Part shown: positions 45,418 to 64,000 of the stretch, one piece after another
Layout: each line of letters begins with the position of its first letter
Numbering within the stretch: the stretch's first letter is position 1
Assembly: GCA_964464515.1 (NCBI GenBank)
Contig: CAYXGP010000002.1
Coordinates: forward strand, 3,130 to 67,129
DNA length: 64,000 nucleotides
Direction: 5' to 3'
Origin: an uncultured Enterobacterales bacterium
Lineage (GTDB): Bacteria; Myxococcota_A; UBA796; UBA2385
Notes under the pieces: model-generated
Told to the model about the DNA's origin: nothing
The model's input: only the letters and a program-made list of their open reading frames with translations
Databases searched by the model: none
Translations under genes and position numbers: made by a program

Positions 45418-48400
45418 ATGACCGGCCGCTCCCACCTCGGATGGACACTCACCGAGCAGCTCCCCGCCGCCTCCGCCACCGTGGAGGTCTGGCGTGCCCG
45501 CCGCGAAGCCCGCTCTGAAGAGAGTGGCGGGACGGGGGTTGCCGAGGCCGAGATCTACCTCGGCCCCGCGGTGCTGGCCGAGCGCGCAGCGACGCTGCCG
45601 ACGTGGGGACCGTTCGCGCCCATCGAGAGCGGCCGCTCCGGAGAGCACTGGGTGGTGGTGGTCCCCGATCGCCTGCACAAGACCATCGCCGAGGCGTGTG
45701 AAGCGCTCTCGCACCCGGCGCGGCTGGGTGTCGCCTGGCACATCGCGGCGGTGGTGGCAGAGCTCCACGACCACGGCGGCTCCCACGGCGCGCTCCACGC
45801 CGGCTTCACCGGGCTCGACTCTCAGGGTCGCCTGTCGATCCGCCCGGCCCTGGCTACGCCGATGGTCACCGAGCCCGATCCCTCCGCGAGCCCCACGGCC
45901 GTCGACTGTCGGCAGCTCGGACGCATCCTCGACGCTCTCCGGCTCGATCGCTTCGACGACCCCGGCATCCCCTTGCTCCTCGGGGGGCTGCGGCGTGAGC
46001 GCGCGCGACTTCGGCTTCAGCCAGGGCGCGCCATCCGTCAGGCCATCTCCGCCATCCTCGTACGCTGGCCTGACTGGTCCGACACGCTCAGCGGAACGCT
46101 GGGTGAGGGGTGGGGCACTGACGGCATCGCGGGTACACTCCGCCAAGTCGCCGACCCTCACTGCGAGCTGGCCCCGGCGCCGCCGCGCGGCACCGAGATG
46201 TCGTTCCGACCCACCAGCGGCTTCCGGACCAGCAGCGCGGGACGAACCAGGGCGGCCATGCGTCCTCCCCCGCGTGCGGTCCCCGCGTTCACGGCGCGAG
46301 TCCGGATGGGACCGAGCGGTCCCCTCGCCCGCTCGATGGAGCCGATCGCAGCCCCCCAACCCGCCGCGCTCAGGATGCCCCTGCGCGGGACCGATCCCCC
46401 CGCCGCACTCCGGATGCCCCTACGTGGAGCCGATCCCCCCGCCGCTCCCCCCATCGTCCGCCTCCCGCTCCCCGCAGCCCTGGGAGGGGCCCCCTCCCGA
46501 GAGGCGCCGCGACCGGTGCGGGTCGCCTCGGCCCACGAAGCCCCCGAGCCGGTGAGCGCCGCGCTGCGTGTCCGCCCACCACAGCTCTCCAAAGCCGGGG
46601 CCGTCAAGGCCAGGACCATCGACGCCGAGCCTGACGAGGCCGTCGAAGACGAGCCGACCGCCAGCGGCGTCCCCATCTCGCGTGCTGCTGCGGTGGTGCT
46701 CCCGACAGCAGCGATCGCGCAACACCTCCGCAGCGACCCACACCTCCGCAGCGACCCGCACCTCCGCGCCGAAGCGCCGACGGCGGTCGTTGTGTCGCCG
46801 CGCGTCCGCGTCGAACCACTGACTCAGGCGAGGCCAGCGGCTGAAGCGCCGAGGATGAAGGCGCCAGCGACCGTGTCAGCAGTGACACCCGCGGTGGCGC
46901 CCGCAGGAGTGACACCCGTAGCCGAGGCTCCGGAAGCGAAGACTCCAACAGCAGAGACACCCGCGGCGGTGGCTCCAGAAGCAGAGACACCCACGACTGA
47001 AGAACCTACAGCGGAGACGCCCTCACCCGAGTCTCTGGAGACAGGGACCCTCGAGACGGGGACCCTCAAGACAGGGACCCTGGAGGTGGGAAGACCCGTC
47101 GTGGAGACGCCCTCGATAGAGGCACTCCCAGCGTCGGAACCGCCCACACCAGAGCCGCCAGCGCCAGAGCCTGTGGCCCCGCCGGTCCCCGCGCTGCCGA
47201 CGAACCTCGACGCCGGCGCGATAGCCGACCCGCCAGGGCCAGACGACCCACCAGAGCCAGCCAAAGCAGTGCCAGCCAAAGCAGTGCCAGCCGAAGCGGG
47301 GCCAGGCGATGCAGAACCGGACGAAGCAGAGCTGGACGCCGAACCAGCAGACTCCCAACCAGCGGACTTTGAGCCCGACGCCCCCCGGCCAGAGGCACCC
47401 ACCGCGACGGCGTCGGAGGTCGCTGCGCCGGAAGTCGCCGCGCTGCCAGTCGCTGTGCTGCCAGTCACTGCGCCGGAGGCCGTCCTGGCGTCACCGGTGG
47501 AGTCTCCGCCGGTCGCCTCGCAGCCCCAACCCGCCGCGCCGAAAGCCACGCCAGAGCTGCAGGCCCCAGAGCCGCAGATACCCGGCCTACCGGAGCTGCC
47601 GCCGCTGGAGCCCCCCCTCGAACCGCCGACTCCAGCGGGCGACGGCGCGCAGCCCCAGGCCTCGGACACCCCGGCCGAGACGCTCGCTCCTCCCGCCGAT
47701 CGGCCTCCACCCGATCCGGGCCCGCTGTCACCCGCGGAGCTGACCGAGGTGGACGAGCCCCCCTGGCTCGACGCGCCCGTTCTGGCAGACCTGGAGCCGA
47801 TGGAGGACTCCTTCTCGTTCACCAGCACCTCGGACACCCCGGACGATCTGCTCGATGGAGTGATCCAGGGCGGCTGGGAGCGGGTGGAGATCGACTCCGA
47901 GCCGTTCGCAGACGACGAGCCGTTCATGTTCGACGACTCACAGTCTGCAGAGCCGCCATCTGCAGAGCCACCATCTGCAGAGCCACCATCTGCAGAGCCA
48001 CCATCTGCAGAGGACGACGAGCTGTTCATGGATGAGCGGTTCGCCGAAGACGACCCCGAAGAGCTGCCGATCGAGCGCCCGGTGAGGGTCGCGTCAGAGG
48101 AGCTGAGCGACGCGCCCACCGTCGAGACCCGATCGGCCTCACCCCCCCCGGCCATCTTCGCCGTACCCACCCCGCTGCCAGACGAAGACGCCCCCACGGT
48201 GTTCGACGAGTCACCGATGCGCTCCCCCCCGGTGCTCGACCCCGGGCCCGAAGACGAGACCGTCGCGACCTTCGAGCCCCCCGCCGGTGTGGCCGACGCC
48301 GCGCCGCGCTGGGCCGGCATCCGGGGCGTCACGGGAGACGAGGCGCGCGAGGCCGAGCTGGGCTCCGGGAAGTGGTCCGAGACGGGCAGCCGGTCGATCG

Positions 48401-50774: not shown

Positions 50775-52697
<1,923 letters not shown>

Positions 52698-52726
52698 CCA
52701 TCCCGCGACCCCGGCATCTCGGCAGC

Positions 52727-52767
52727 CCTGACATTCCGGGAGAGAAGCCTGACATTCCGGCAGAGAA
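52727..52767 (+). promoter_or_regulatory. Two 20-nt direct repeats (CCTGACATTCCGG[G/C]AGAGAA, 19/20 identical) with a 21-bp period, 52-92 nt upstream of ATG 52819
   Basis: Read directly (52727-52746 and 52748-52767). Each copy contains a TGACA -35-like core. A regulatory role is inferred only from position and helical phasing. Confidence 0.4.
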
Positions 52768-52818
52768 AGGAGCCGCGAGGTAGAGTCTCCCCCACCGCGT
52801 CCAGCCTGGGAGACACCG

Positions 52819-54363
52819 ATGCTTTGCCACACCCTCACCATGATGTCCGTCAACTTCGCGATGGACGGCTGGCGCCCCAACTCCCTGGGCTTCATCGACA
52901 GCACCACCCACCCCATCCGCTGCCACTGGAAGTACGCCGACAACGAGAAGGACTGCGCCAACATCCTGGCGTCCGCCGAGGAGGCCTGGGACGCGCAGGT
53001 GACCGACATGGGCTTCGAGGCGCCCACGCCTGACACCGACGGGATCCTCGACTTCTACATCGCGGACGACTGGACCAAGGGCGGCGCGTGGACAGCCTGC
53101 AACGACATGCGCGACTCGGACTCCGGGGACGGTCGTCGGAGCTGCCCCGCCTACGTGGTGATGGATCCGCACTACTCCGGCAAGAAGCTCCGAGCGACAG
53201 TGGTCCACGAGTTCAACCACGTCGTGCAGTTCTCCCATGACTTCATGGAGCCGTCGTACCTCATCTGGGAGGGGATGGCGTCCGCCGCCGAGCCCTGGAC
53301 CTCCAATCGCTACCAGACGTACATCAGCTACGTCCAGGCCTTCCAGGACGACCCCTGGCTCGGCCTCCTCGGAGACTCCTACTACCTGTGGGACGCCCAT
53401 CGCATCTGGTCATACTACGAGTACGGCGGCGCTGTCTGGGCGCTGCACATGGACGACGTGTGGGGCGGCGCGGTGGACGGCGAGGCCGGCGCGGATCTGT
53501 GGTGGGCGGCCAGCGAAGAGAGCGCGGGCACCGAGAACGAGCCCGACATCATGGACGCCTACGACACGGTGACCGGCGATTGGCAGGTGGCCCTGCTGGA
53601 TCTGGCGCAGGCGCGCGCGCGAATCGGAACCGAGCACGCGCCCGCCTGGGCGACCTTCACGCAGGACGTCCCGGACTCATACGCCGACGGCACCATCGCA
53701 TACGAGGCCCACGTGGAGTGGGCGGATCTCCCCGTGACGATCACGCCGGAGTTCATGCCCTTCGAGACCGGCATGGTCTACGTCCAGATCGGCAGCGTCC
53801 CTGAAGACGCCGCAGTGAAGGTGCGGCTCAAGGGAGACGAGGGGGTCACCTGGGGAGCGTTCTCGGTCGATGGGGCGGATGGAGACTGGGCCATCGCCAA
53901 TACCCTCACGCAGAACGGCAGCGGCGGCGACGTGATGATGGGAGCGGTCAACCTGGGTCCCCCGGAATTCGACGCCGATCCCGGGGGCTTCGGCACGTTC
54001 CCGGGCAACAACCTGCAGGCGTGGGACGTGCTCCTCGAGTTCGAGCAGGCTGAGCGGGTCGAGGACACCACGACGGGGACCACCGGCGGATCGACCACCG
54101 GCGGATCGACCACCGGTGGATCGACCTCCGGCGGATCGACCACCGGCGGAACCACGGGCGCCACCGGCGGCGCGACCTCCGGCGGCACGAGCGGCGGATC
54201 CGGCGGCGACGACACCGGTCGCCCGCCCCTGAAAGACGACACCGAAGAGCCGACGGGCTGTGGCTGCGCGAGCGGCCCGACCGGCGGGCTGTCCTGGATC
54301 GCGGTGACAGCGCTGGCTGCTGCCCTCCGGAGGCGAAGAGACACAGCGTCACACCAGGCTTGA
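52819..54363 (+). CDS. Metzincin-like zinc metalloprotease candidate with a MYXO-CTERM sorting tail
   Basis: HEFNHVVQFSH matches HExxHxxxxxH. Gly/Thr/Ser linker. C-terminal TGCGCASGPTGGLSWIAVTALAAALRRRR. GGGAG RBS before the ATG. No N-terminal signal peptide is visible. Confidence 0.7.
   Translation: MLCHTLTMMSVNFAMDGWRPNSLGFIDSTTHPIRCHWKYADNEKDCANILASAEEAWDAQVTDMGFEAPTPDTDGILDFYIADDWTKGGAWTACNDMRDSDSGDGRRSCPAYVVMDPHYSGKKLRATVVHEFNHVVQFSHDFMEPSYLIWEGMASAAEPWTSNRYQTYISYVQAFQDDPWLGLLGDSYYLWDAHRIWSYYEYGGAVWALHMDDVWGGAVDGEAGADLWWAASEESAGTENEPDIMDAYDTVTGDWQVALLDLAQARARIGTEHAPAWATFTQDVPDSYADGTIAYEAHVEWADLPVTITPEFMPFETGMVYVQIGSVPEDAAVKVRLKGDEGVTWGAFSVDGADGDWAIANTLTQNGSGGDVMMGAVNLGPPEFDADPGGFGTFPGNNLQAWDVLLEFEQAERVEDTTTGTTGGSTTGGSTTGGSTSGGSTTGGTTGATGGATSGGTSGGSGGDDTGRPPLKDDTEEPTGCGCASGPTGGLSWIAVTALAAALRRRRDTASHQA
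54085..54159. repeat. 15-nt x5 tandem repeat (GGCGGATCGACCACC) encoding GGSTT x5 in the linker before MYXO-CTERM
   Basis: Read directly. Confidence 0.95.
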
Positions 54364-54427
54364 AGTCCCCCGCGGGTGGCGCTACCTTGGGCGGCCACGA
54401 CGGACTCCACCAACAGAGGTCCCGCCC

Positions 54428-56035
54428 ATGACACCCACCGCCCTGCTCGTCGGGCTCGTCCTCAAGGGCGGTCCAACCGCCTACGCCCAGGACCCCGCAG
54501 CGCCCCCCGCGAGCGATGCACCAGCAGCCCCCGCCGCTTCGACTGAGGCGGAAGAGGGCACAGGAGAGTCCGCCGCAGGAGAGTCCACCGCAGGGGAAGC
54601 AACTGCAGGGGAAGCAGCTGCAGCTGACCCGGCTGAAGGGGCCGCGGAAGAGGCCGCCCCCGCCGCGGCGCTCCAGCCCCACGTGATCGGCATCTACTCC
54701 AACGGCGTGCTGTACCTCGACGGTGAGCCCTCCGGCCGGGGAGCGGTGCGCAAGGAAATCCGCGACCGCTTCGAGGCGGCCCCGGAGACCCCCTGGTTGA
54801 TCCAGGTGCATCCGTCGGCGACCACCGCGGGACCAGAGCTGGGCTGGCTGCTGGGTACGCTCGGCCGGACCGGGATCATCGACTACCAGATCGCCCGTGA
54901 GGCCTGGGAGCCGCCCAGCGCTGAAGCCGTCGCGACCGCTGCCGCTCCAAGCACACCAGGCGCCGCATGCGCTGCAGCGGCGCCGTCGTGGGTCCGGCCC
55001 ATCAGCGATGCCCGGGTCGGTCTGCAGGCGGGTAACACCAACGCTCTGTGGGACGACAACGAGGAGATCCCGCCCTTCGATCTCCAGTTCCAGGTGCTGC
55101 GCGCCGCGGTGGGGGCTCACGCGGAGCTGGGTGATCACGTCGACACGCGGATCCTCCTGAACGTCATCGAGAACCACGACACGTGGACTGCCGACTTCAC
55201 CACCGCCTCCGGAGAGACCGGCAGCGTCGAGGTACCGGCCACTGCAGAGGGTTGGACGCCGCGGGTCCGCGACCTGTGGGCCGATCTCGCCTTCAGCGAG
55301 CGCACCCACATGCGGGTGGGTATGCAGTCCGGCATCCTGGGACCCCAGGACTCCTGGAGCAACTCACCCACCGGCTACGACACCGGCGGGGTGGCCTCCG
55401 ATTCTCTGGTGCAGATCGCCGGCATCGAGCAGGATCGCATGCTCGGCGCGAAGGCCTCCTCGACCTGGAGCGACGGCGCTTACACGCTGGAGGTGATGGC
55501 CGCCAACACCGAGGGCTCCATCGGCGCCGAGGAAGACAACCCCAAGGCGCTGTCCGCGCGGGCCACCATCGGCCTGGGAGAGAAGGTGCGCGCGATGGTC
55601 TCGGGAAAGACCCGGCTCGGCGGCGACGACACCCAGACGGCGATGGACGTCACGCTCGAGGTGCGCGGTGAGCGCGCGCGAGTGCTGGCGGAGTACCTCG
55701 GCGGCTCGCAGGGCGAGGACGGCGCCGAAGCCAGGTCCTTCGTCGGTTTCCAGGTGGGCGCTGCGGCCGATCTGGACGTCGACGCAGATCCCATCGACAA
55801 ATTCTCGCTCGTCGCCCGCCACGCCTTCTTCGATCCGCGCGCGCAGGAGCAGATCACTGTCAACACGCGGGAGTACACCGCCTGGTCGGTCACCGGCGTG
55901 GGGCTGCAGGAGTGGTGGGTGGTGCGCGATGAGGCGAGCTTCGCCACCATGCTCGGATACGAGTTCGTCGTGCCGATGGATGAGGAAGCCCAGATCGAGC
56001 ACCGCGGCACCCTGCAGTGGCTGTGGGGCTTCTGA
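54428..56035 (+). CDS. Outer-membrane porin-like beta-barrel protein with an N-terminal periplasmic module
   Basis: Signal peptide ..LVGLVLKGGPTAYA. Acidic A/E/G repeat. An approximately 80-aa segment resembling the ExbD/TolR fold (by eye). Long alternating beta pattern ending LQWLWGF (aromatic C-terminus). Confidence 0.65.
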   Translation: MTPTALLVGLVLKGGPTAYAQDPAAPPASDAPAAPAASTEAEEGTGESAAGESTAGEATAGEAAAADPAEGAAEEAAPAAALQPHVIGIYSNGVLYLDGEPSGRGAVRKEIRDRFEAAPETPWLIQVHPSATTAGPELGWLLGTLGRTGIIDYQIAREAWEPPSAEAVATAAAPSTPGAACAAAAPSWVRPISDARVGLQAGNTNALWDDNEEIPPFDLQFQVLRAAVGAHAELGDHVDTRILLNVIENHDTWTADFTTASGETGSVEVPATAEGWTPRVRDLWADLAFSERTHMRVGMQSGILGPQDSWSNSPTGYDTGGVASDSLVQIAGIEQDRMLGAKASSTWSDGAYTLEVMAANTEGSIGAEEDNPKALSARATIGLGEKVRAMVSGKTRLGGDDTQTAMDVTLEVRGERARVLAEYLGGSQGEDGAEARSFVGFQVGAAADLDVDADPIDKFSLVARHAFFDPRAQEQITVNTREYTAWSVTGVGLQEWWVVRDEASFATMLGYEFVVPMDEEAQIEHRGTLQWLWGF

Positions 56036-56046
56036 CGAAAAACTCC

Positions 56047-56988
56047 GTGACCACCCCCCTCTGCACGTCCTGCCAGTCCCCGCACCCCACCATGGGGATC
56101 TGTCTGGAGTGCGGCGCCATCGCCCTGAACCCGAGCACCTGGCCGCAGCGTCTCCCGGTGGGGGTCGGCGAGCACAGGTACCGGGTGTTCGGGCGCATCG
56201 CCCGCGGCGAGAGCAGCGACGTCTTCATGGCCTGTCGCGACGCCCACCCCACCGAGCGGGTGGTGCTGAAGGTGCTGCGCGCCAGCGGTGACGAGGTGCT
56301 GATGGTCCGCGAGTGGCGCGCGCTGGAGGCGCTGTGGGCTTCTGAAGTCCAGGGGGCGGATTTCTTCCGCCAGCAGCTTCCCCAGCCGGTAGCCCAGGGG
56401 CCGCTGACCCGCGCCAGCGGACGGGACGGGCATGCCTCGGTCTTCCGATGGCGCAGCGGCTTCTGCCTGACGCTGGCCGACGCCGCGCGGGCCTTCCCGG
56501 GGGGACTCGATCCCCGCGCGGCGGTCTGGATGTGGCGGCGCCTGCTGGAGCTGCTCGGGTGGGTGCATCGCAGCGGGTGGGTCCACGGAGCGGTGCTCCC
56601 GCAGCACATCCTGCTGCACGAGCGCGATCACGGCGCGACCCTGGTGGGCTGGTCAGCGGCGTGCGCGATCGGTGCCGCCGCGCCGGTCATCCTCTGCCGA
56701 AGCGCGGGCCCGTACTACTCTGAGCGACGATGGAGCGGCGCGCGCCCCACGCCGACCTCCGATCTCGCGATGAGCGCGCGGTGCATGGCCCGAGTGCTCG
56801 GGGGAGATGCACGGTCGATGGAGCTGCCCGCAGCGGTTCCGCGTCCGCTCGTAGAGCTGCTGACCCGCGCAGCCGAAGAGCGAACAGACGACGCCTGGGC
56901 GCTCAACGACGCAGTCGAGGCCGCGGCCCGGCGAATCTACGGCCCGCCGCGGTACATACGATTTCGCATTCCGCGTGAGCCCGCGTGA
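56047..56988 (+). CDS. Zn-ribbon protein-kinase-like protein, predicted pseudokinase
   Basis: CTSC..x11..CLEC ribbon. GRIARGESSDVF Gly-loop-like segment. VVLKVL Lys. VHGAVLPQH in place of HRDxxxxN. No DFG Asp. The start may be GTG 56047, 56023 or 56017. Confidence 0.7.
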   Translation: MTTPLCTSCQSPHPTMGICLECGAIALNPSTWPQRLPVGVGEHRYRVFGRIARGESSDVFMACRDAHPTERVVLKVLRASGDEVLMVREWRALEALWASEVQGADFFRQQLPQPVAQGPLTRASGRDGHASVFRWRSGFCLTLADAARAFPGGLDPRAAVWMWRRLLELLGWVHRSGWVHGAVLPQHILLHERDHGATLVGWSAACAIGAAAPVILCRSAGPYYSERRWSGARPTPTSDLAMSARCMARVLGGDARSMELPAAVPRPLVELLTRAAEERTDDAWALNDAVEAAARRIYGPPRYIRFRIPREPA

Positions 56989-57021
56989 GCCCGCGATAGC
57001 CAACGCAGACGGAGGCCCCCC

Positions 57022-57996
57022 ATGGGATACGGAAGCTACAGCCACGAAGCCCACCGCGCGATCACCCGCACCCGCGCGAAGCTCCCCCGCCAGGAGGTCT
57101 TCAAGCAGCGGACCTGCCATCCGCTGATGGACCCGCAGGGCGTGGGGCTGCGAGAGAGCCGCGACAGCGACGCGCACCCCCGGTCGGTGGGGGTGGTGTT
57201 CGCGCTGGACGTCACCGGCTCGATGGGCGCCATCCCCGACACCCTCGCCCGCAAGGAGCTGCCCGGCTTCATGCGCACCCTGATGGACTGCGGCGTCGAA
57301 GACCCGCAGCTCCTGTTCATGGCCGTGGGCGACGCCTACTCCGACGCCGCTCCGCTGCAGGTGGGGCAGTTCGAGTCGGCCGCCGAGAAGATGGACCAGT
57401 GGCTCACCTGGAGCTACCTCGAGGGCAAGGGGGGCGCGTTCGGCGCCGAATCCTATGAGCTGGCGCTGTACTTCGCGGCGCGCCACATCGAGATGGACTG
57501 CTGGCTGCAGCGGCAGCGCCGCGGCTACCTGTTCATGACCGGCGACGAGCTGCCCTATCCGCAGGTCTCCCGCAGCCAGGTGCGGCGGCTGATCGGCGAC
57601 GAGCTGGAGGAGGATCTCCCGCTGGCGCCGATCGTCTCCGAGGTCGAGGAGCGGTTTGAGCCCTTCTTCCTGATCCCCGATCAGCGCCGTCGGGCCCACT
57701 GCGAGCGGGCCTGGCGCGATCTGCTGGGCGACCACGTGATCTGCATGGACACACCCGAGGACACCTGCCGGGTAGCCTCCGGGCTGGTGGCGCTGTGCGA
57801 GGGCGCTGTCCGCGATCTGGATGAGCTGGCCGAGCGGATGAAGGCGATGGGCGTGCCCCGCAAGCGCCTCGGAGCGGTCATCCGAGCGCTCACGCCCTTC
57901 GCCGCCAGCCGCGCCCTCGACAGCGCCCCCGAGCCCCGACTGGAGGAGGCGCCGCTGCCCGACGGCGACGAGAAGAGCGGACACCGACGCGCGTGA
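57022..57996 (+). CDS. von Willebrand factor type A (vWA) domain protein with a MIDAS motif
   Basis: VVFALDVTGSMG (DxTGS), LFMAVGD, LFMTGDE. GGAGG RBS 7 nt upstream of the ATG. Confidence 0.8.
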   Translation: MGYGSYSHEAHRAITRTRAKLPRQEVFKQRTCHPLMDPQGVGLRESRDSDAHPRSVGVVFALDVTGSMGAIPDTLARKELPGFMRTLMDCGVEDPQLLFMAVGDAYSDAAPLQVGQFESAAEKMDQWLTWSYLEGKGGAFGAESYELALYFAARHIEMDCWLQRQRRGYLFMTGDELPYPQVSRSQVRRLIGDELEEDLPLAPIVSEVEERFEPFFLIPDQRRRAHCERAWRDLLGDHVICMDTPEDTCRVASGLVALCEGAVRDLDELAERMKAMGVPRKRLGAVIRALTPFAASRALDSAPEPRLEEAPLPDGDEKSGHRRA

Positions 57997-59342
57997 GTGA
58001 AGCCTGGCTCGTCGCCGATCTGGGCTTCGGCGACGCCGGCAAGGGCACGATCACCGACTTCCTGGTCCGCGACCGCGGCGCGCGCGCGGTGATCCGCTGG
58101 AACGGCGGCGCGCAGGCCGGCCACAACGTGGTCACCCCCGACGGACGGCACCACACCTTCGCGCAATTCGGCGCGGGCACGTTCGTCGCGGGGGCGCGCA
58201 CCCACCTGGCATGCGACGTGGTGATCCACCCGCTGGCCCTCTGGATCGAGGCGGCGGTGCTGCGGCGCTCCGGCGTCTCGGACGCCCTCGATCGCCTCAC
58301 CATCTCGGAGCAGGCCCGCTGCATCACTCCCTTCCACCAGGCCGCCGGGCGGCTGCGGGAGCTGGCCCGGGGAGCAGAAGCCCACGGCACCTGCGGGGTG
58401 GGTGTCGGCGAGACGGTGGCCGACGCGCTGGCCGGGAGGGTGCTCCGCGCCGGAGCGCTGGCCCGCGGCTCCCGGAGGGATCTCCTGCGCCATCTGCGCC
58501 GACAGCAGCGCCTCAAGCGAGAGACCCTGGACGACATCCTGCGCGCCCTCGGCGATCACCCGCTGGCGCAGCCGGAGCGTGAGATCCTCGAAGATCCGGC
58601 TGTGCCCGCGCGCTGGCTGGAGGCCCTGGCGCCGCTGCGGGCCCGCTGGCGGGTGGTGTCCCCCGGAGCCATCGCGGATCTGCTCGCCGCGCCGGTCGTC
58701 TTCGAGGGCGCCCAGGGGGTGCTGCTCGACGAGTGGGTCGGCTTTCATCCCCACACCACCTGGAGCACCTGCACCGTCCAGCCGGCCCTGGATCTGCTGC
58801 GCGCCCACGGCTTCGCTGGGAAGGTTCACCGCCTGGGGGTGCTGCGGACGTTCACCCCCCGACACGGCGCGGGGCCGCTGCCATCGCAGGCCGCCGCGCT
58901 GGCCGACCTCCCCGAGCCCCACAACGACGCGGAGGGCTGGCAGGGCGACTTCCGACGAGGCTGGCTGGACCTCGTGCTGCTGCGCTACGCGCTGGCAGTC
59001 TGCCCGGTGGACGCCCTCGCGGTGACACACCTCGATCGACTGCGACCCGGCTGGCGATACTGCGGATCCTGGCGCGCGCGGCACCCGCTGCCCCCCGCGC
59101 TGCTGCGCGCCGATCCCCACGATCCCCGGCGCGCGCTGGGGATCCGCCCTGGCCCCCGGCGCGATCTGGCGCGGCAGGCCCGCCTCACGGCCGCCATCCA
59201 GGACGTCTGGGCCGAGACCGCTCCCCTGCCCGATCGCTTCATCCCCTGGCTCGAAGACGCGCTGGAGCGACCGGTGCGCCTCCTGTCGTCCGGGTCCACC
59301 GCCGCTCGTAAGCGCTGGAGGGGGGCACCACCCGACGGATGA
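57993..59342 (+). CDS. Divergent adenylosuccinate-synthetase (PurA) family GTP-dependent ligase, substrate unknown
   Basis: Collinear by eye with E. coli PurA: GFGDAGKGTITD, NGGAQAGHNV, GTCGVGVGE, FEGAQGVLLD, PRHGAGPLP, FRRGWLD, THLD, SSGS. GTG 57993 overlaps the vWA stop (GTGA). Confidence 0.75.
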   Translation: MSEAWLVADLGFGDAGKGTITDFLVRDRGARAVIRWNGGAQAGHNVVTPDGRHHTFAQFGAGTFVAGARTHLACDVVIHPLALWIEAAVLRRSGVSDALDRLTISEQARCITPFHQAAGRLRELARGAEAHGTCGVGVGETVADALAGRVLRAGALARGSRRDLLRHLRRQQRLKRETLDDILRALGDHPLAQPEREILEDPAVPARWLEALAPLRARWRVVSPGAIADLLAAPVVFEGAQGVLLDEWVGFHPHTTWSTCTVQPALDLLRAHGFAGKVHRLGVLRTFTPRHGAGPLPSQAAALADLPEPHNDAEGWQGDFRRGWLDLVLLRYALAVCPVDALAVTHLDRLRPGWRYCGSWRARHPLPPALLRADPHDPRRALGIRPGPRRDLARQARLTAAIQDVWAETAPLPDRFIPWLEDALERPVRLLSSGSTAARKRWRGAPPDG

Positions 59343-59384
59343 GATAGCCCCGATCGATGAGATAGAAGCCCCACGGGAGGACCC

Positions 59385-59984
59385 ATGGAGCAGGGAAAGT
59401 GCCGGGGATGTGGCGTGTGGCTCCAGCCGGAGTGGGTGGTCTGCCGCTACTGCGGGGCGCCCACCGGCCGTGAAGGTGCCGGCCCGGAGAGCTCGACGCA
59501 GCAGGCCCCCGAGAGGCCGGCGCCCCGAAGTCAGGCGCATCGCCCGATCGACGCAGCGCTCGATCTGGCCGAAGCGAAGACCCTGGTCGCCAACATCGAC
59601 GCGCGCTTCCCCGACATCGACGACCTGTACACCGGTGACAACATCCCGGACTCCAAGCTGTGCAACGCCCGAAAGACCTGCGAGGTCCCGGACGACGAGA
59701 CGATCCTGGTGCTGCTCGACGCCACGGTCTTCGGCTCGGCCAAGAACGCCATGCTGATCGGCACGCGCGCGATCTACCTGCACAACGACTGGGCCAGCGA
59801 CACCTCCGGGCGCTGGCGCGTGGGCTGGGAGGAGCTGGTGGACGCCACCCCCGAGGAGAGGGAGACCCACGAGGCCAGGGTCGGCCGCAAGGCCTGCCTG
59901 AACACCTCCGGCAGCAGCGCCGACCCCGACGAGGCGGCGGCGATCGCTGCGCTGGCACGTCAGATCCTGCTGGCACGCCGATGA
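59385..59984 (+). CDS. Zn-ribbon protein with an uncharacterised ~120-aa C-terminal domain
   Basis: CRGC..x9..CRYC ribbon. C-terminal ILVLLDATVFGSAKNAMLIGTRAIYLHN. GGGAGGA RBS. Its stop overlaps the cysM start (ATGA). Confidence 0.7.
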   Translation: MEQGKCRGCGVWLQPEWVVCRYCGAPTGREGAGPESSTQQAPERPAPRSQAHRPIDAALDLAEAKTLVANIDARFPDIDDLYTGDNIPDSKLCNARKTCEVPDDETILVLLDATVFGSAKNAMLIGTRAIYLHNDWASDTSGRWRVGWEELVDATPEERETHEARVGRKACLNTSGSSADPDEAAAIAALARQILLARR

Positions 59985-60895
59985 CCGGAGACATCGCGTC
60001 CCGCGTGGGAAACACCCCCCTGGTGCGGCTGTCGCGCGTGGTTCAGGGTCAGGTGCCCGAAGAAGTGGAGATCTGGGCCAAGCTGGAGTCGGCCAACCCC
60101 GGCGGCTCGGTCAAGGACCGCGCGGCCCTGTCGATGATCCGCGACGCTGAGCGCCGTGGTCACCTGCGGCCGGGGATGACCATCCTCGATGCGTCATCGG
60201 GCAACACCGGCATCGCCTACGGGATGCTCGCCGCGGCGCGCGGCTACCGGGTGGCGCTCTGTCTTCCATCCAACGCCAACGCCGAACGAAAAGCAGCCCT
60301 GCGCGCCTACGGAGTAGAGCTCATCGAGACCTCCCCGCTGGAGGGCAGCGACGGCGCGATCCGGCGCGCTCGCGCGCTGTTCGAGGCAGCGCCGCAGCGC
60401 TATCTGTACCTGGACCAATACAATAACGACGCCAACTGGCGCGCGCACTACGCCGGCACCGGCCCGGAGATCTGGTCGCAGACAGGCGGGCGCATCACCC
60501 ACTGGGTCACCTGCCTGGGCACCAGCGGCACCTTCGTGGGGGTGACACGCTTTCTGCGGGCTCGAGCCTCGCAGGTGTGGTGCGTCTCCGTCCAGCCCGA
60601 CGCGCCGTTCCACGGACTGGAGGGCCTCAAGCACATGGAGACGTCGATCGTGCCCGGCATCTACGATCCCGGCCTGGCCGACGAGAACCTCGGCGCGCCC
60701 ACCGAGGAGAGCTTCGCCCTGGTGCGACGCCTCGCGCGCGAGGAGGGTCTGCTGGTCGGCCCCAGCTCGGGTGCTGCGCTGTGGGGAGCCCTGCGGATCG
60801 GCCGCGATCTGCGCGAAGGCGTCGTGGTCACGCTGTTCCCCGACAGCGGCGAGCGCTACCTCTCCGAGCCCCACATCTGGAGCGAACCCGCGTGA
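59981..60895 (+). CDS. cysM: Cysteine synthase B-type PLP enzyme (CysM, CysO-thiocarboxylate-dependent type likely)
   Basis: VGNTPLVRL, PLP-Lys NPGGSVKDRAA, SSGNTG, GTSGT, GPSSGAA. Confidence 0.9.
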   Translation: MTGDIASRVGNTPLVRLSRVVQGQVPEEVEIWAKLESANPGGSVKDRAALSMIRDAERRGHLRPGMTILDASSGNTGIAYGMLAAARGYRVALCLPSNANAERKAALRAYGVELIETSPLEGSDGAIRRARALFEAAPQRYLYLDQYNNDANWRAHYAGTGPEIWSQTGGRITHWVTCLGTSGTFVGVTRFLRARASQVWCVSVQPDAPFHGLEGLKHMETSIVPGIYDPGLADENLGAPTEESFALVRRLAREEGLLVGPSSGAALWGALRIGRDLREGVVVTLFPDSGERYLSEPHIWSEPA

Positions 60896-61371
60896 CACCC
60901 CTGAAGATCACAGCCGCGGAGCTGGCCCGACTGCATGCCCACGTTGTCGAAGGCTACCCCTACGAGGTCGTGGGGATCCTGGCCGGCGACCGCGCATGCA
61001 TGCGCGTCGTGAGGGTACACCCGCTCGTCAATGAGCGCGCGGACAGCCCCCGAAACCGCTACCGCGTGAGCGGCCTGCTGCTGATGCGCGCCGAGCAGAC
61101 GCTGGGCGAGGAAGGGCTGGAGGTGGTGGGCTACTACCACTCCCACCCCGACCACCCCGCGATGTACTCCGACCATGATCGAGAGCACGCGCTGCCCAAC
61201 ATGAGCTATGTGATCGCCAGCGTGCGCGATGGGAGCGTCGTTGACACGCGCTGCTGGCGACTGCGGGAGGACCGCTCAGTCATGGACGCACAGCCATTTC
61301 AGCCATTTCAGCCCGCTCAACCCAATCAGCCAACTCAAACAGTCCAACCCATCCAAGAGGGCGCACCATGA
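60892..61371 (+). CDS. mec: JAMM/MPN+ metalloprotease (Mec-like)
   Basis: EVVG Glu and the HSHPDHPAMYSDHD JAMM motif. GTGA overlap with cysM. Q-x-x repeat tail. Confidence 0.88.
   Translation: MTPLKITAAELARLHAHVVEGYPYEVVGILAGDRACMRVVRVHPLVNERADSPRNRYRVSGLLLMRAEQTLGEEGLEVVGYYHSHPDHPAMYSDHDREHALPNMSYVIASVRDGSVVDTRCWRLREDRSVMDAQPFQPFQPAQPNQPTQTVQPIQEGAP
61291..61353. repeat. 9-nt x7 degenerate tandem repeat (CAGCCATTT-like) encoding QPF QPF QPA QPN QPT QTV QPI
   Basis: Read directly. It forms the C-terminal tail of the JAMM protein and is locally AT-richer. Confidence 0.85.
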
Positions 61372-61652
61372 GCACCCCGATCACCATACCCACCGCGCTC
61401 CGCGCCTACACCGGGGGCGAGGCTACCGTGCATGTAGACGGCGACACCGTGACCGACGCGCTGGACTCGCTCACCACCCGCTACGACGGCCTCGCCCGCC
61501 ACCTGCGCGACGATGCCGGTCGGCTGCGCAGCTTCGTCAACGTCTACCTGGGCGACGAGGACATCCGCTTCCTGAGCGACGGCGCGCAGACACGCCTGAA
61601 GCCCGGCGACGCCCTCGTCATCGTGCCCAGCATCGCCGGGGGTGTCGCGTGA
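61368..61652 (+). CDS. cysO: ThiS/MoaD-fold sulfur-carrier protein (CysO-like) ending AGG-VA
   Basis: 94 aa with a beta-grasp pattern. C-terminus VIVPSIAGGVA. ATGA overlap upstream and GTGA overlap downstream. Confidence 0.85.
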   Translation: MSTPITIPTALRAYTGGEATVHVDGDTVTDALDSLTTRYDGLARHLRDDAGRLRSFVNVYLGDEDIRFLSDGAQTRLKPGDALVIVPSIAGGVA

Positions 61653-62791
61653 CCGGCCTGCCTGAGCTCGATCACTGGGACATCGCCCGCTACTCACGCC
61701 ACCTCATCCTCGACGAGGTGGGGATGGAGGGGCAGCGACGCCTCAAGGGCGGCGCAGTGCTCTGTGTGGGCACCGGCGGACTGGGCAGCCCGCTGCTGCT
61801 GTATCTGGCCGCCGCCGGAGTGGGCCGAATCGGCGTCGTCGACTTCGACGTGGTGGATGAGTCCAATCTACAGAGGCAGGTGCTGCACGGCACCTCCTCC
61901 GTGGGGAGGCCAAAGGTAGAGAGCGCACGCGCACGCATCCTGGACATCAACCCCCGGTGCCAGGTCGATGTCTACGAGACCGCGATTCGTTCAGATAATG
62001 CTCTGGAGATCGTTGCGCCGTATGACGTCGTCGTAGATGGGACGGACAACTTCCCGACCCGCTACCTCGTCAACGATGCATGCGTCATCATGGGCAAGCC
62101 CAACGTCTACGGGTCCATCTTCAAATTCGAGGGGCAGGCGAGCGTCTTCAACTACCGCGGAGGACCCAACTACCGCGATCTGTACCCCGAGCCCCCACCC
62201 CCGGGTCTGGTGCCCTCCTGCGCGGAGGGCGGCGTGCTGGGGATCCTCCCCGGGGTCATCGGCTGCATCCAGGCCACCGAGACGATCAAGATTCTGCTGA
62301 ATCAGGGCGACACCCTGTCGGGCCGCCTGCTGCTGTACGACGCCATGCAGATGACGTTCCGCACGCTCAAGCTGCGGTGCGATCCAAACCGCGCGCCCAT
62401 CACCGAGCTGATCGACTACCAGCAATTCTGCGGGTTCCCCGCTGCAGACACCGAGCCCACAGCCGAGCCGTTCGAGCGCTTGGACGTCGCCACGATCGCC
62501 GCCGCGCGGGCGGACGGCTGGCGGCCGTTCGTGCTGGACGTTCGTCGAACGCACGAGGCGGAGATCGTCTCGCTGGGGTGGGCCGACGCCCTGATCCCCC
62601 ACGGAGACGTCGCCGCGAACCTCGATCGCATCCCCAGGGGCCGCGACATCCTGGTGCACTGCAAGATGGGCGGGCGATCCGCCAAGGCTGCCCGGGTGCT
62701 GGCCGACGCCGGCTACCAGCGGGTGGTCAACATGGAAGGCGGGATCACCGCCTGGGCGACCGAGATCGACCCGCGTCTGCCCACCTACTGA
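61649..62791 (+). CDS. moeZ: MoeZ/MoeB-type E1-like adenylyltransferase with a C-terminal rhodanese domain
   Basis: RYSRHLIL, GTGGLGSP nucleotide loop, DESNLQRQ, SCAEGGVLG. Rhodanese active-site loop HCKMGGRS. Confidence 0.9.
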   Translation: MTGLPELDHWDIARYSRHLILDEVGMEGQRRLKGGAVLCVGTGGLGSPLLLYLAAAGVGRIGVVDFDVVDESNLQRQVLHGTSSVGRPKVESARARILDINPRCQVDVYETAIRSDNALEIVAPYDVVVDGTDNFPTRYLVNDACVIMGKPNVYGSIFKFEGQASVFNYRGGPNYRDLYPEPPPPGLVPSCAEGGVLGILPGVIGCIQATETIKILLNQGDTLSGRLLLYDAMQMTFRTLKLRCDPNRAPITELIDYQQFCGFPAADTEPTAEPFERLDVATIAAARADGWRPFVLDVRRTHEAEIVSLGWADALIPHGDVAANLDRIPRGRDILVHCKMGGRSAKAARVLADAGYQRVVNMEGGITAWATEIDPRLPTY

Positions 62792-64000
62792 GTCGGCAGC
62801 CACACCTCGAACAGCGCGCCGCCGCCCGGCGCATCGCGCGCATCCACGGTGCCGCGGTGCTCCTCCACCAGACGTCGAACGATCGCCAGCCCGAGACCGG
62901 TGCCGGTGTCGGTGCCGGACACGCCCACGTCGAACAGCGTCTCGCGCAGCTCCGGGGGGAGCCCGGGGCCCTCGTCGCGAACGCTCCACCCCACGCGATC
63001 GGTCTCCACCCGCACCTCCACGAGGACATGACCGCCCCGCGGACTGTGCTGCAGCGCGTTCACCAGGAGGTTCTGGAGCACCCTGCCCAGATCGCGATCG
63101 TCGCCGAGCGTCCGGGCCTCCCGGGGGGCGTCCACCAGCAGCGCGACCCCCCGCGAGCGGGCCTGGACGTAGAGCGGCGCGCAGACCCGACGCGTCAGCT
63201 CACCCAGCTCCACCGTGAGCCGCTCACCGCGTGCCTTCAGCGCTTTTCCGGTCAGCTCCAGGGCGCTCCTGGCGGCCTCCTCGATCATCTTCACCATGTC
63301 TCGGAACTCGAACGGATCGGCGCACTCGCCGAGGTACTGGGCCGCCAGCATGATGGATGACAGCGGGCTGCGCAGATCGTGGGCCAGACCCGAGGCGTGC
63401 TCGGCGCGCAGCCGAGCGCTGTTGAGCGCCTCCACCGCGAAACCGGCCAGCCCCTGGAGGAGCAGGGAGGTCTGCCCCAGCTCCCAGTCGGTGGTGCTGC
63501 GGCTGTCGACGTAGATCACGCCCAGCGTCTCGTGCTGGGAGATGAGCGGCACGCACAGCGCCGCGCGGATCCCCAGCGCCAGGACGCTGGGCGCCGCGCG
63601 CAGATCACCGCGCTCGTCGAGATCGGTCGCCATCACCTCGCAGCGGTTCTCAAACGCCCGCTCGACGATGGACATCGACGGCGCGCCCTCGGGGACGCCC
63701 TGCGGAGCAGACGCCACCACCGTGTACTCCTTCCCTCGGCGCTGGAGCACGTAGGCGCGGTCGGCACCCAGCAACGAGACCGCCGCGTCGGCGATGGCCA
63801 CCAGGAGCGAATCGACCCGCCGAAACCGCGAGAGCTGCATCGCCAGGTGCATGAGCTGAGCGATCTGGCTGGGCTTGAGCTCGGGGCCGGCCTCGCGGCT
63901 GATGCGACTGAGCAGGACATCCGCCCGCTTTCGCAGCGGGACCAGGTGGACCTCGTCGGCGTAGGCGGCCACCCGGCGGGCGTCGCGCTCCGCCTCGGCG
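62785..64000 (-). CDS. GAF-domain sensor histidine kinase (N-terminus possibly beyond the window)
   Basis: GAF region. H-box AHDLRSPLSSI, N-box LQNLLVNALQHS, G1 RDEGPGL, G2 GTGLGLAIV. The reading frame stays open from GTG 63972 to the window edge. Its stop overlaps the moeZ stop by 7 nt. Confidence 0.85.
   Translation of the reverse strand, partial: AEAERDARRVAAYADEVHLVPLRKRADVLLSRISREAGPELKPSQIAQLMHLAMQLSRFRRVDSLLVAIADAAVSLLGADRAYVLQRRGKEYTVVASAPQGVPEGAPSMSIVERAFENRCEVMATDLDERGDLRAAPSVLALGIRAALCVPLISQHETLGVIYVDSRSTTDWELGQTSLLLQGLAGFAVEALNSARLRAEHASGLAHDLRSPLSSIMLAAQYLGECADPFEFRDMVKMIEEAARSALELTGKALKARGERLTVELGELTRRVCAPLYVQARSRGVALLVDAPREARTLGDDRDLGRVLQNLLVNALQHSPRGGHVLVEVRVETDRVGWSVRDEGPGLPPELRETLFDVGVSGTDTGTGLGLAIVRRLVEEHRGTVDARDAPGGGALFEVWLPTQ

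What the first reader, a model, noticed from the sequence alone, without database searches (positions are those of the whole stretch)
59338..62791. CysM-JAMM-CysO-MoeZ sulfur-carrier module is chained by start/stop overlaps to a Zn-ribbon protein and lies 42 nt from the PurA-like gene
Seen: the Zn-ribbon gene (59385..59984) ends in ATGA with cysM. cysM/JAMM share GTGA (60892-60895), JAMM/CysO share ATGA (61368-61371), and CysO/MoeZ share GTGA (61649-61652). The 42-nt spacer after the PurA-like stop has no terminator-like hairpin. It does hold a 10-nt direct repeat, GATGAGATAG, at 59338-59347 and 59356-59365. Established: the CysO thiocarboxylate, CysM, Mec and MoeZ form an alternative cysteine pathway in Mycobacterium tuberculosis. 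The same carrier chemistry feeds sulfur into thio-metabolites such as thioquinolobactin. Inference: all eight genes from 56047 to 62791 may be one transcription unit. A speculative chemical link is that a PurA-type phosphorylated carbonyl is attacked by a protein thiocarboxylate instead of aspartate, which would give a thionucleotide. It is equally possible that a housekeeping cysteine module simply sits downstream.
Basis: partly seen in the sequence, partly recalled or inferred. Interest (0 to 1): 0.55.

Follow-up and report, generated by a model that had tools for sequence, protein, structure and literature searches.

The report
Ordinary cysteine sulfur-carrier operon beside unrelated cassette
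The four sulfur-carrier genes are a well-known, widely conserved cysteine-making operon that in this one myxobacterial genome happens to lie just downstream of an unrelated mobile three-gene cassette, so the proposed "thionucleotide" link is not supported.

Summary

- The cassette of kinase-like, vWA and PurA-like genes recurs in 80 GTDB loci from at least six phyla, in 20 IMG/VR contigs and in Bxz1-type mycobacteriophages. None has a JAMM, CysO, MoeZ or Zn-ribbon homologue within 6-10 kb. PurA-like is the last conserved gene.
- In the 80 closest CysM loci, the order cysM-JAMM-cysO-moeZ is kept in 54 of the 57 that are long enough. None of the 40 with at least 3 kb upstream carries the cassette.
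- This four-gene operon type was catalogued in 2006 (Iyer et al., class 4c).

The Zn-ribbon gene is real: a Zn ribbon plus a probably PH-like domain that elsewhere is fused to kinases and TIR domains. It is lineage-specific and accompanies neither module elsewhere.

One detail was missed. CysO ends in GG-VA, and all relatives carry extra residues or a MoeZ fusion after GG. The JAMM protease must therefore also unmask the carrier.

Read-through transcription remains possible but untested. Interest is low.

The parts
56047..56988 (+). Context only: kinase-like protein (probable pseudokinase) with an N-terminal CxxC...CxxC Zn ribbon. It is the first gene of the conserved triad.
   Evidence: There is no Pfam hit. 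It gives weak kinase matches: PADLOC MkoA and PD-T4-6, phrog_3043 'kinase' at 68 bits, and PDB kinases only at E around 0.01. The family carries HGAVLPxH where kinases have HRDLKPxN, so the catalytic Asp is absent across 68 homologues. Gene callers start it at 56092. Homologues are 330-370 aa long, which favours the earlier start.
57022..57996 (+). Context only: vWA-fold protein with a DxTGS MIDAS-like motif. It is the second and most conserved gene of the triad.
   Evidence: It has no Pfam or PDB sequence hit. The AF2 model has pLDDT 76, and Foldseek finds integrin beta I-like, collagen VI vWA and SpaC vWA domains at E around 6e-6. NCBI names homologues 'VWA domain-containing protein'. It matches phrog_2971 at 184 bits.
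57993..59342 (+). Context only: divergent adenylosuccinate-synthetase (PurA) family enzyme. It is the last conserved gene of the triad.
   Evidence: Pfam Adenylsucc_synt scores 180 bits, but NCBIfam PurA scores 138 bits against a 402-bit cut-off and PurZ scores 41 against 300. It keeps GDxGKG, the GH and FEGAQG motifs, while the aspartate loop TTGR is replaced by WQGD. It matches phrog_1211 at 217 bits.
59338..59365 (+). Two exact copies of GATGAGATAG (59338-59347 and 59356-59365). The first spans the PurA-like stop codon. With a 3-nt indel the repeat extends to GATGAGATAG(AAG)CCCC.
   Evidence: locate the copies. The motif is not enriched elsewhere. Local 10-mer repeats are common in this window. 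No promoter-like site was found. Its function is unknown.
59375..59381 (+). Shine-Dalgarno-like GGGAGGA, 3 nt before the Zn-ribbon ATG.
   Evidence: Read directly from the sequence. It shows that the Zn-ribbon gene has its own ribosome-binding site.
59385..59984 (+). Zn-ribbon protein of 199 aa. It has a C-x2-C-x10-C-x2-C ribbon (residues 6-23), a low-complexity linker, and a C-terminal domain of about 115 aa that is probably PH-like (seven strands plus a C-terminal helix).
   Evidence: - Coding: GC3 is 0.90.
- The only full-length match in the word-indexed 5.8-billion-protein search is the protein itself.
- An exhaustive HMMER search finds 885 proteins that share the C-terminal domain. In them it is fused to Pkinase, TIR, Sel1 or DUF1232.
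- The AF2 model has pLDDT 90.5.
- The top Foldseek hits, none significant, are bacterial PH domains and RanBP2/NZF-type zinc fingers.
- PADLOC gives a hit to the BnzA N-terminus at 1e-6.
- The domain profile finds no copy in the 160 comparison loci.
59981..60895 (+). cysM: a PLP-dependent cysteine synthase B-type enzyme with the SVKDR Lys motif.
   Evidence: PALP scores 225 bits and TIGR01138 cysM scores 375 bits. The closest solved structures are E. coli/Salmonella CysM at 267 bits, against 195 bits for M. tuberculosis CysM.
60892..61371 (+). JAMM/Mec-type metalloprotease with an intact HSHPDHPAMYSDHD motif (HxHx7Sx2D).
   Evidence: Prok-JAB scores 69 bits. The desampylase model scores 73 bits, below its cut-off. 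The PDB match is 2KCQ at 6.5e-21. The motif was read from the translation.
61368..61652 (+). cysO: a ThiS/MoaD-fold sulfur-carrier protein whose C-terminus reads ...SIAGG-VA, with two residues after the Gly-Gly.
   Evidence: It aligns end to end with M. tuberculosis CysO (3DWG_C, 2e-19) up to GG at residues 91-92. ThiS scores 44 bits. In all 54 homologues in related loci whose reading frame reaches a stop, 1-43 residues or an in-frame MoeZ fusion follow the GG.
61649..62791 (+). moeZ: an E1-like adenylyltransferase (ThiF domain) fused to a C-terminal rhodanese domain with the active-site loop CKMGGR.
   Evidence: ThiF scores 263 bits and Rhodanese 36 bits. PRK07411 scores 571 bits and PRK07878 MoeZ scores 472 bits.
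62785..64000 (-). 3' part of a convergent 1461-aa Ser/Thr-kinase/GAF/HATPase gene. Its stop overlaps the moeZ stop region by 7 nt, which marks the downstream boundary of the + strand gene run.
   Evidence: ORF 62785..63972 and beyond; called gene with its Pfam list.

Best explanation
Three evolutionarily independent units lie head to tail on one strand.

1. Genes 59981-62791 form a standard cysM-JAMM-cysO-moeZ operon, the ThiS/MoaD + E1-rhodanese + JAB + cysteine synthase type. By homology with the M. tuberculosis pathway it is expected to work as follows.
- MoeZ adenylates the C-terminal glycine of CysO.
- The rhodanese persulfide of MoeZ converts that glycine to a thiocarboxylate.
- CysM (PLP) adds the thiocarboxylate to the aminoacrylate made from an activated serine.
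- After an S-to-N acyl shift, the JAMM protease hydrolyses the CysO-cysteine adduct. This releases cysteine and regenerates CysO.
- Because CysO here ends in GG-VA, the JAMM protease must first trim the carrier to expose the Gly-Gly.

2. Gene 59385-59984 is a lineage-specific Zn-ribbon protein with a probably PH-like domain. It has been placed at the head of this operon and is translationally coupled to cysM. Its role is unknown; an accessory or regulatory role is the best guess.

3. Genes 56047-59342 are a self-contained mobile cassette of pseudokinase, vWA and PurA-like genes, found in many phyla and in phages. It ends with the PurA-like gene and has no functional tie to sulfur carriers.

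What is shown: the domain identities, the catalytic motifs, the gene-order conservation and the lack of co-occurrence. What is inferred: the chemistry (by homology) and the independence of function (from comparative genomics).
For: -
- In the 80 closest CysM loci from metagenomes, all 54 that are long enough and complete keep the order cysM-JAMM-cysO-moeZ. A further 23 are cut by contig ends and 3 lack an adjacent cysO-moeZ.
- Forty of those loci have at least 3 kb upstream, and none has a kinase-like, vWA, PurA-like or Zn-ribbon hit.
- In the nearest relatives cysM is preceded by a non-overlapping flavoprotein gene or by a divergently oriented Rce1-like gene, with a gap of more than 100 nt to the cysM match. 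cysM is therefore the first gene of the module there.
- The triad is conserved in the 80 GTDB loci: PurA-like in 79, vWA in 75 and kinase-like in 68. No gene downstream of PurA-like is conserved, although 68 loci have at least 2 kb and 59 have at least 5 kb of downstream sequence.
- No JAMM, CysO, MoeZ or Zn-ribbon hit appears at E<=1e-2 in any of these loci.
- The nearest relatives have a second vWA plus a Ser/Thr kinase, an acyl-CoA dehydrogenase, or a convergent GerE regulator after PurA-like.
- The triad also sits on 20 of 21 IMG/VR contigs and in Bixzunavirus phages such as Catera (gp249, gp250, gp252), without sulfur genes.
- This operon type is catalogued as class 4c in PMC1779556.
- The pathway is established in mycobacteria (PMC3227635 and PMC3141025, listed).
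- Masked or fused CysO C-termini are seen in all relatives.
Against: - The genes are co-directional and only 42 nt apart, and no terminator or promoter is detectable. Read-through from the triad into the cys genes is therefore plausible, and it could provide lineage-specific regulatory coupling.
- The neighbourhood tests cover only 6-10 kb around each gene. Genome-wide co-occurrence of the triad with cysO/moeZ was not measured.
- CysM is closer to enterobacterial CysM than to the M. tuberculosis O-phosphoserine enzyme, so the serine donor is unknown.
- No biochemical evidence exists for this organism.
Confidence: 0.82

Rival explanations
1. The eight genes 56047-62791 form one functional unit. 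The PurA-like enzyme phosphorylates a nucleotide carbonyl, and the CysO thiocarboxylate, rather than aspartate, attacks it to give a thionucleotide.
For: The genes are on the same strand with a 42-nt spacer and no + strand terminator. The aspartate-binding loop of the PurA-like enzyme has diverged (TTGR to WQGD), so its nucleophile may not be aspartate. Sulfur-carrier proteins do serve secondary metabolism in other systems (PMC1779556).
Against: - Adjacency is absent everywhere it was tested: 0 of 80 genome loci, 0 of 21 viral contigs, phage Catera, and 0 of 40 reverse loci.
- The diverged aspartate loop belongs to a family that functions in phages and in Saccharibacteria MAG loci with no sulfur-carrier gene nearby.
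- The presence of CysM already explains the carrier as a cysteine-synthesis component.
- An unrelated gene, the Zn-ribbon/PH-like gene, separates the two modules.
Confidence: 0.03
2. The Zn-ribbon/PH-like protein is a functional, lineage-specific fifth component of the sulfur-carrier system. It could be an adaptor, a sensor, or a conjugation target of the ubiquitin-like CysO. Its RanBP2/NZF-like zinc ribbon would contact the beta-grasp carrier or the E1-like MoeZ.
For: An ATGA overlap couples it translationally to cysM. It has native codon usage (GC3 0.90). The ribbon has the C-x2-C-x10-C-x2-C spacing, and its best local structural matches are NZF/RanBP2 fingers, some of which bind ubiquitin (target TM 0.6-0.8 over 24-26 residues). 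Other lineages also add accessory genes to this operon, for example ClpS and a helical protein in actinobacteria (PMC1779556).
Against: - The Foldseek E-values are above 1, and small zinc ribbons all look alike.
- No homologue of the protein or of its domain accompanies any of the 80 related cys operons.
- Elsewhere the domain is fused to kinases and TIR domains, not to sulfur enzymes.
- The homologue neighbourhoods that could be read show no cys genes.
Confidence: 0.07
3. The module mainly serves something other than cysteine synthesis. Candidates are SAMP-like protein conjugation, or sulfur delivery to tRNA thiolation or molybdopterin, with CysM playing a minor role.
For: The best NCBIfam names are SAMP1 (58.2 bits against a 60-bit cut-off), desampylase and SAMP-activating E1. 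Mycobacterial MoeZR is known to serve both Moco and cysteine synthesis (PMC3227635).
Against: All those scores fall below the curated cut-offs. CysO aligns best and end to end with M. tuberculosis CysO. cysM is the invariant first gene of the module in all related loci, which ties the carrier to cysteine synthase.
Confidence: 0.08

Closest known systems
M. tuberculosis CysO-dependent cysteine pathway (Mec Rv1334, CysO Rv1335, CysM Rv1336, MoeZR Rv3206c)
   Same: It has the same four protein families. CysO aligns over its full length with Rv1335 (2e-19). The JAMM motif, the PLP lysine and the rhodanese cysteine are all present.
   Different: - The gene order here is cysM-JAMM-cysO-moeZ with moeZ inside the cluster, whereas in M. 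tuberculosis it is mec-cysO-cysM with moeZ elsewhere.
- CysM is closer to E. coli CysM (267 bits) than to the O-phosphoserine-specific M. tuberculosis CysM (195 bits).
- CysO carries two residues after the GG.
- There is no ClpS or AosR-type neighbour. A Zn-ribbon/PH-like gene sits at the head instead.
Operon class 4c of Iyer, Burroughs and Aravind 2006 (ThiS/MoaD + E1-rhodanese + JAB + cysteine synthase; PMC1779556)
   Same: The gene content and the E1-rhodanese fusion are exactly the same. It is described there from proteobacteria, Acidobacteria, Actinobacteria, Bacteroidetes and Chloroflexus.
   Different: This copy is from an uncultured Myxococcota-like genome and has an extra upstream gene. 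Otherwise it does not differ.
Thioquinolobactin QbsC/QbsD/QbsE sulfur transfer (Pseudomonas fluorescens)
   Same: The carrier protein has residues after the Gly-Gly that a JAMM protease must remove before activation (from my own knowledge of Godert et al. 2007). The E1-rhodanese activator is also shared.
   Different: No siderophore or other secondary-metabolite genes are adjacent here. A cysteine synthase is present, which points to cysteine as the product.
Archaeal SAMP / UbaA / JAMM1 system
   Same: It has the same three folds, and the best-named NCBIfam hits are to it.
   Different: All scores are below the curated cut-offs. Linkage to cysM is not a feature of SAMP systems. Conjugation was not tested.

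Membership tests
CysO/CysM/Mec/MoeZ protein-thiocarboxylate cysteine pathway (operon class 4c) | ThiS/MoaD-fold carrier with a C-terminal Gly-Gly | tested here: met
   It aligns with M. tuberculosis CysO (3DWG_C) through to GG at residues 91-92. Two extra residues (VA) follow, as in all relatives.
CysO/CysM/Mec/MoeZ protein-thiocarboxylate cysteine pathway (operon class 4c) | E1-like adenylyltransferase fused to a rhodanese domain with an active-site Cys | tested here: met
   ThiF scores 263 bits and Rhodanese 36 bits. MoeZ/MoeB models score 472-571 bits. The CKMGGR loop was read from the translation.
CysO/CysM/Mec/MoeZ protein-thiocarboxylate cysteine pathway (operon class 4c) | PLP-dependent CysM-type cysteine synthase | tested here: met
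   TIGR01138 scores 375 bits, just under the 394-bit equivalog cut-off. PALP scores 225 bits. PDB CysM scores 267 bits. The SVKDR motif is present.
CysO/CysM/Mec/MoeZ protein-thiocarboxylate cysteine pathway (operon class 4c) | JAMM metalloprotease with an intact HxHx7Sx2D motif | tested here: met
   Prok-JAB scores 69 bits. The motif HSHPDHPAMYSDHD is present in the translation. The PDB match is 2KCQ at 6.5e-21.
CysO/CysM/Mec/MoeZ protein-thiocarboxylate cysteine pathway (operon class 4c) | The four genes are clustered, and the cluster is conserved across genomes | tested here: met
   Among the 80 closest loci, 54 have all four genes in the same order, 23 are cut by contig ends and 3 are exceptions.
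CysO/CysM/Mec/MoeZ protein-thiocarboxylate cysteine pathway (operon class 4c) | Formation of a CysO thiocarboxylate and release of cysteine from a CysO-Cys adduct | not testable with these tools
   This requires biochemistry.
   Adjacency is absent in 0 of 80 GTDB loci, 0 of 21 IMG/VR contigs, phage Catera and 0 of 40 reverse loci.
   No terminator or sigma-70-like promoter was found, but such scans are weak in Myxococcota. RNA data are needed.
Secondary-metabolite sulfur-transfer cluster (thioquinolobactin/PDTC type) | The carrier, E1 and JAB genes lie next to metabolite-biosynthesis genes | tested here: not met
   The neighbours are the triad, the Zn-ribbon gene and a convergent kinase/GAF/HATPase gene. 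No biosynthetic enzymes other than CysM are present.
Archaeal-type SAMP conjugation system | Scores reach the curated family thresholds for SAMP1, UbaA and desampylase | tested here: not met
   The scores are 58.2 against 60, 330 against 450, and 73 against 130 bits.

The most novel reading that the evidence does not exclude
In this one lineage, the mobile pseudokinase/vWA/PurA-like cassette has been wired by read-through transcription, and perhaps through the Zn-ribbon/PH-like protein, to the CysO/MoeZ sulfur-carrier operon. The PurA-like enzyme would then receive sulfur from a protein thiocarboxylate and make a thio-modified nucleotide.
Probability: 0.02. Interest if true: 0.75.

Novelty: new member of a known kind. 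Interest (0 to 1): 0.15.

Why it matters
There is little new biology in the finding itself. It is another copy of a sulfur-carrier cysteine operon that was catalogued in 2006 and characterised biochemically in mycobacteria.

The value of the check lies in three points.
- It removes an attractive but unsupported "thionucleotide" hypothesis.
- It documents that in this clade the carrier's Gly-Gly is always masked or fused to MoeZ. The JAMM protease therefore has a maturation role as well as a recycling role.
- It shows that the neighbouring pseudokinase/vWA/PurA-like cassette is an autonomous unit shared by phages and bacteria. That cassette deserves its own study, independent of sulfur chemistry.

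Tried and rejected
- Literature searches for a described system combining a PurA-like enzyme, a vWA protein and a kinase found nothing functional.
- A synteny test used the window's other flanking genes (uvrC, FG-GAP, the 514-aa and 535-aa proteins, the 1461-aa kinase, Usp). No shared context was found in either set of loci, so the insertion history could not be reconstructed.
- The decamer GATGAGATAG was tested as a possible regulator site. It has no other copies and is not enriched. Local 10-mer repeats are common in the window.
- The spacer was tested as a terminator or structured RNA. The fold is not different from shuffles, and Rfam finds nothing in the whole window.
- The - strand terminator-like hairpin at 59368-59391 was rejected as chance: 5 such sites were found against 1.9 +/- 1.6 expected, and there is no - strand gene to terminate.
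- The neighbourhoods of Zn-ribbon/PH-like homologues lie on short contigs and were uninformative.
- PADLOC gives no defence-system assignment for the vWA or PurA-like proteins.

Full report
**Observation**

The region was read directly. The PurA-like ORF (57993-59342) stops at TGA 59340-59342, and the Zn-ribbon ORF starts at ATG 59385, which leaves a 42-nt spacer. The four junctions are as reported: ATGA at 59981-59984, GTGA at 60892-60895, ATGA at 61368-61371 and GTGA at 61649-61652. GATGAGATAG occurs exactly twice in the window, at 59338 and 59356.

All ten + strand genes from 52819 to 62791 show the strong third-position GC (0.78-0.92) expected of real genes in this 70.5% GC genome. The Zn-ribbon gene has GC3 of 0.90. 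The same gene order is present in three independent assemblies, namely a 142,843-bp JGI contig, a 53-kb ENA scaffold and a Logan contig, so it is not a chimera. A MYXO-CTERM sorting signal in the 514-aa protein upstream and the best hits of the PurA-like protein place the organism in the Myxococcota.

**Identity of the sulfur-carrier genes**

Pfam and NCBIfam searches give the following assignments:
- A CysM-type PLP enzyme, at 375 bits to TIGR01138.
- A Prok-JAB protease.
- A ThiS-family carrier.
- A ThiF plus rhodanese protein, at 472-571 bits to MoeZ/MoeB models.

The translations contain the expected catalytic motifs:
- The PLP-lysine motif SVKDR in CysM.
- The JAMM motif HSHPDHPAMYSDHD.
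- The rhodanese loop CKMGGR.

The carrier aligns end to end with M. tuberculosis CysO (3DWG chain C, E = 2e-19) up to Gly-Gly at residues 91-92. The JAMM protein matches 2KCQ at 6.5e-21. CysM is closer to enterobacterial CysM (267 bits) than to the O-phosphoserine-specific M. tuberculosis enzyme (195 bits), so the serine donor is left open.

The pathway is established in mycobacteria (PMC3227635 and PMC3141025). The exact four-gene operon type, ThiS/MoaD + E1-rhodanese + JAB + cysteine synthase, was catalogued as class 4c by Iyer, Burroughs and Aravind in 2006 (PMC1779556).

CysO here ends in ...SIAGG-VA. In the 80 closest CysM loci, the CysO reading frame could be followed to a stop codon in 54. 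None of these ends at the Gly-Gly. Either 1-43 residues follow it, or the carrier is fused in frame to MoeZ, which is the case in 18 loci. The JAMM protease must therefore unmask the carrier as well as hydrolyse the CysO-cysteine adduct. This is analogous to QbsD/QbsE in thioquinolobactin synthesis, a comparison drawn from my own knowledge.

**Test of the proposed link: forward direction**

A scan of one genome per GTDB species with the PurA-like protein returned 80 loci with up to 10 kb on each side. They come from Myxococcota, Chloroflexota, Saccharibacteria and other CPR, Actinomycetota, Planctomycetota, Acidobacteriota, and Massilia/Variovorax.

tblastn and clustering of the neighbouring ORFs gave these results:
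- The PurA-like gene is in 79 loci, the vWA gene directly upstream of it in 75, and the kinase-like gene in 68.
- There is no conserved gene downstream of PurA-like, although 68 loci have at least 2 kb and 59 have at least 5 kb of downstream sequence.
- No locus has any JAMM, CysO, MoeZ or Zn-ribbon hit at E<=1e-2.
- Only four loci have a distant CysM-like gene (33-40% identity), and it is not adjacent.

In the nearest relatives the gene after PurA-like varies:
- A second vWA paralogue plus a Ser/Thr kinase.
- An acyl-CoA dehydrogenase.
- A convergent GerE regulator in Sandaracinus amylolyticus.

The cassette is also viral:
- It is present on 20 of 21 IMG/VR contigs.
- All three proteins have PHROG families.
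- The vWA protein matches 219 phage records, 200 of them Mycobacterium phages.
- In phage Catera the genes are gp249 (kinase), gp250 and gp252 (PurA-like).
- None of these loci has sulfur-carrier genes nearby.

**Test of the proposed link: reverse direction**

A metagenome scan with CysM gave 80 loci at 57-72% identity. Of these, 54 carry cysM-JAMM-cysO-moeZ in that order, 23 are cut by contig ends, and 3 lack an adjacent cysO-moeZ. Forty loci have at least 3 kb upstream of cysM, and none has a hit to the kinase-like, vWA, PurA-like or Zn-ribbon proteins.

In the closest loci cysM is preceded by a flavoprotein gene on the same strand, about 170-230 nt upstream of the cysM match, or by a divergent Rce1-like gene. 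cysM is therefore the first gene of the module there.

**The Zn-ribbon gene**

The word-indexed search of 5.8 billion proteins found only the protein itself. An exhaustive HMMER search found 885 proteins that share its C-terminal domain of about 115 residues, in one to five copies. In the sampled members this domain is fused to protein kinase, TIR, Sel1 or DUF1232 modules, and one member gives weak PH-family (Vps36 GLUE, PH_TFIIH) matches.

An AlphaFold model built on 41 sequences has pLDDT 90.5. It shows seven strands followed by a long C-terminal helix, which is a PH-like topology. Foldseek against the PDB gives no significant hit. The top matches are bacterial PH domains for the C-terminal part and RanBP2/NZF zinc fingers for the N-terminal ribbon.

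A profile of the domain finds no copy in any of the 160 comparison loci. The gene has its own Shine-Dalgarno sequence (GGGAGGA, 59375-59381), and its stop overlaps the cysM start. I read it as a lineage-specific insertion at the head of the cys operon. Its function is unknown.

**The spacer**

There is no sigma-70-like promoter anywhere in 52000-64000, and no + strand terminator in the spacer. The fold of 59300-59420 is no more stable than its shuffles (z = 0.25). The decamer repeat is real. It extends with a 3-nt indel to GATGAGATAG(AAG)CCCC, so it looks like a small imperfect tandem duplication spanning the PurA-like stop codon. Such local repeats are frequent in this window (59 observed against about 6.6 simulated), and the motif is not used elsewhere.

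Read-through from the triad into the Zn-ribbon and cys genes is therefore plausible. My rough estimate is that it is more likely than not. Co-transcription of neighbouring cassettes is not evidence of a shared pathway.

**The triad, briefly**

- The kinase-like protein carries HGAVLPxH where kinases have HRDLKPxN in all 68 homologues, so it is probably a pseudokinase.
- The middle protein is a vWA domain by structure (model pLDDT 76; integrin beta I-like and collagen VI vWA hits at E around 6e-6).
- The PurA-like enzyme keeps the P-loop, the catalytic His and the FEGAQG motif, but has WQGD in place of the aspartate-loop TTGR.
- Twenty-seven of the 80 loci carry an NrtR-type Nudix-winged-helix gene next to the cassette.
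- I found no functional study of this cassette.
- It is the more interesting object in this neighbourhood, but it is not part of the sulfur-carrier finding.

**Verdict**

The sulfur-carrier module is an ordinary member of a known operon class. The Zn-ribbon/PH-like gene is a lineage-specific addition of unknown role. The proposed chemical link to the PurA-like enzyme is not supported.

Noticed in passing
window 56047-59342; loci L001-L080, L164, L165, L173-L196: The triad of kinase-like, vWA and PurA-like genes is an autonomous, widely transferred cassette. It is found in at least six bacterial phyla, on 20 IMG/VR contigs of 25-416 kb, and in about 200 Bxz1-type (cluster C1) mycobacteriophages as well as Rhizobium and Vibrio phages. 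All three proteins have PHROG families. I found no functional study. This is probably the most interesting object in this part of the window.
   Followed up: partly
window 56047-56988 and homologues in L001-L080: The kinase-like protein has HGAVLPxH in place of the HRDLKPxN catalytic loop in every homologue, and VGW/(V/I)DW in place of DFG. It is therefore a conserved pseudokinase. It also has an N-terminal CxxC...CxxC zinc ribbon, which the gene callers' start at 56092 would cut in half.
   Followed up: partly
L019 1974-2681, and 26 other loci (for example L023, L024, L054, L065): An NrtR-type gene (Nudix domain plus NrtR winged-helix domain) lies next to the triad in 27 of 80 loci, usually just upstream on the same strand. 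This hints at regulation by an ADP-ribose-like or other nucleotide ligand. The window itself lacks it.
   Followed up: partly
L084-L163 (cysO homologues); window 61643-61652: In the related cys operons, none of the 54 CysO homologues with a readable C-terminus ends at the Gly-Gly. Either 1-43 residues follow it, or the carrier is fused in frame to MoeZ (18 loci). The JAMM protease must therefore mature the carrier in this clade.
   Followed up: yes
window 62785-62791: The moeZ stop and the stop of the convergent 1461-aa Ser/Thr-kinase/GAF/HATPase gene overlap by 7 nt. This leaves no room for a terminator between the convergent genes.
   Followed up: no
window 52819-54363: This 514-aa protein has an MXAN_6640-like HExxH metalloprotease domain, a Thr/Gly/Ser-rich repeat linker and a MYXO-CTERM sorting signal (21.8 bits against a 20-bit cut-off). 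This supports a Myxococcota origin for the contig.
   Followed up: partly
L173 (Ga0316204_10010904) and L089 (Ga0316204_10004589): The closest triad homologue (vWA 72% identical) and one of the closest cys operons (CysM 67% identical) come from the same metagenome but lie on different contigs with different neighbours. This suggests the two modules are unlinked in a near relative, but it was not shown that both contigs belong to one genome.
   Followed up: no
window 5828-5908 and 46373-47971: These are dense clusters of short (10-nt seed) local direct repeats, probably repetitive coding sequence. They were not examined.
   Followed up: no
L164 11932-13766: In a Myxococcaceae-like relative the triad lies close to an AAA_21 ATPase plus DUF4276 gene pair. 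In L165 it lies near phage baseplate and tail genes. The context could be a defence island or a prophage, but this is anecdotal.
   Followed up: no
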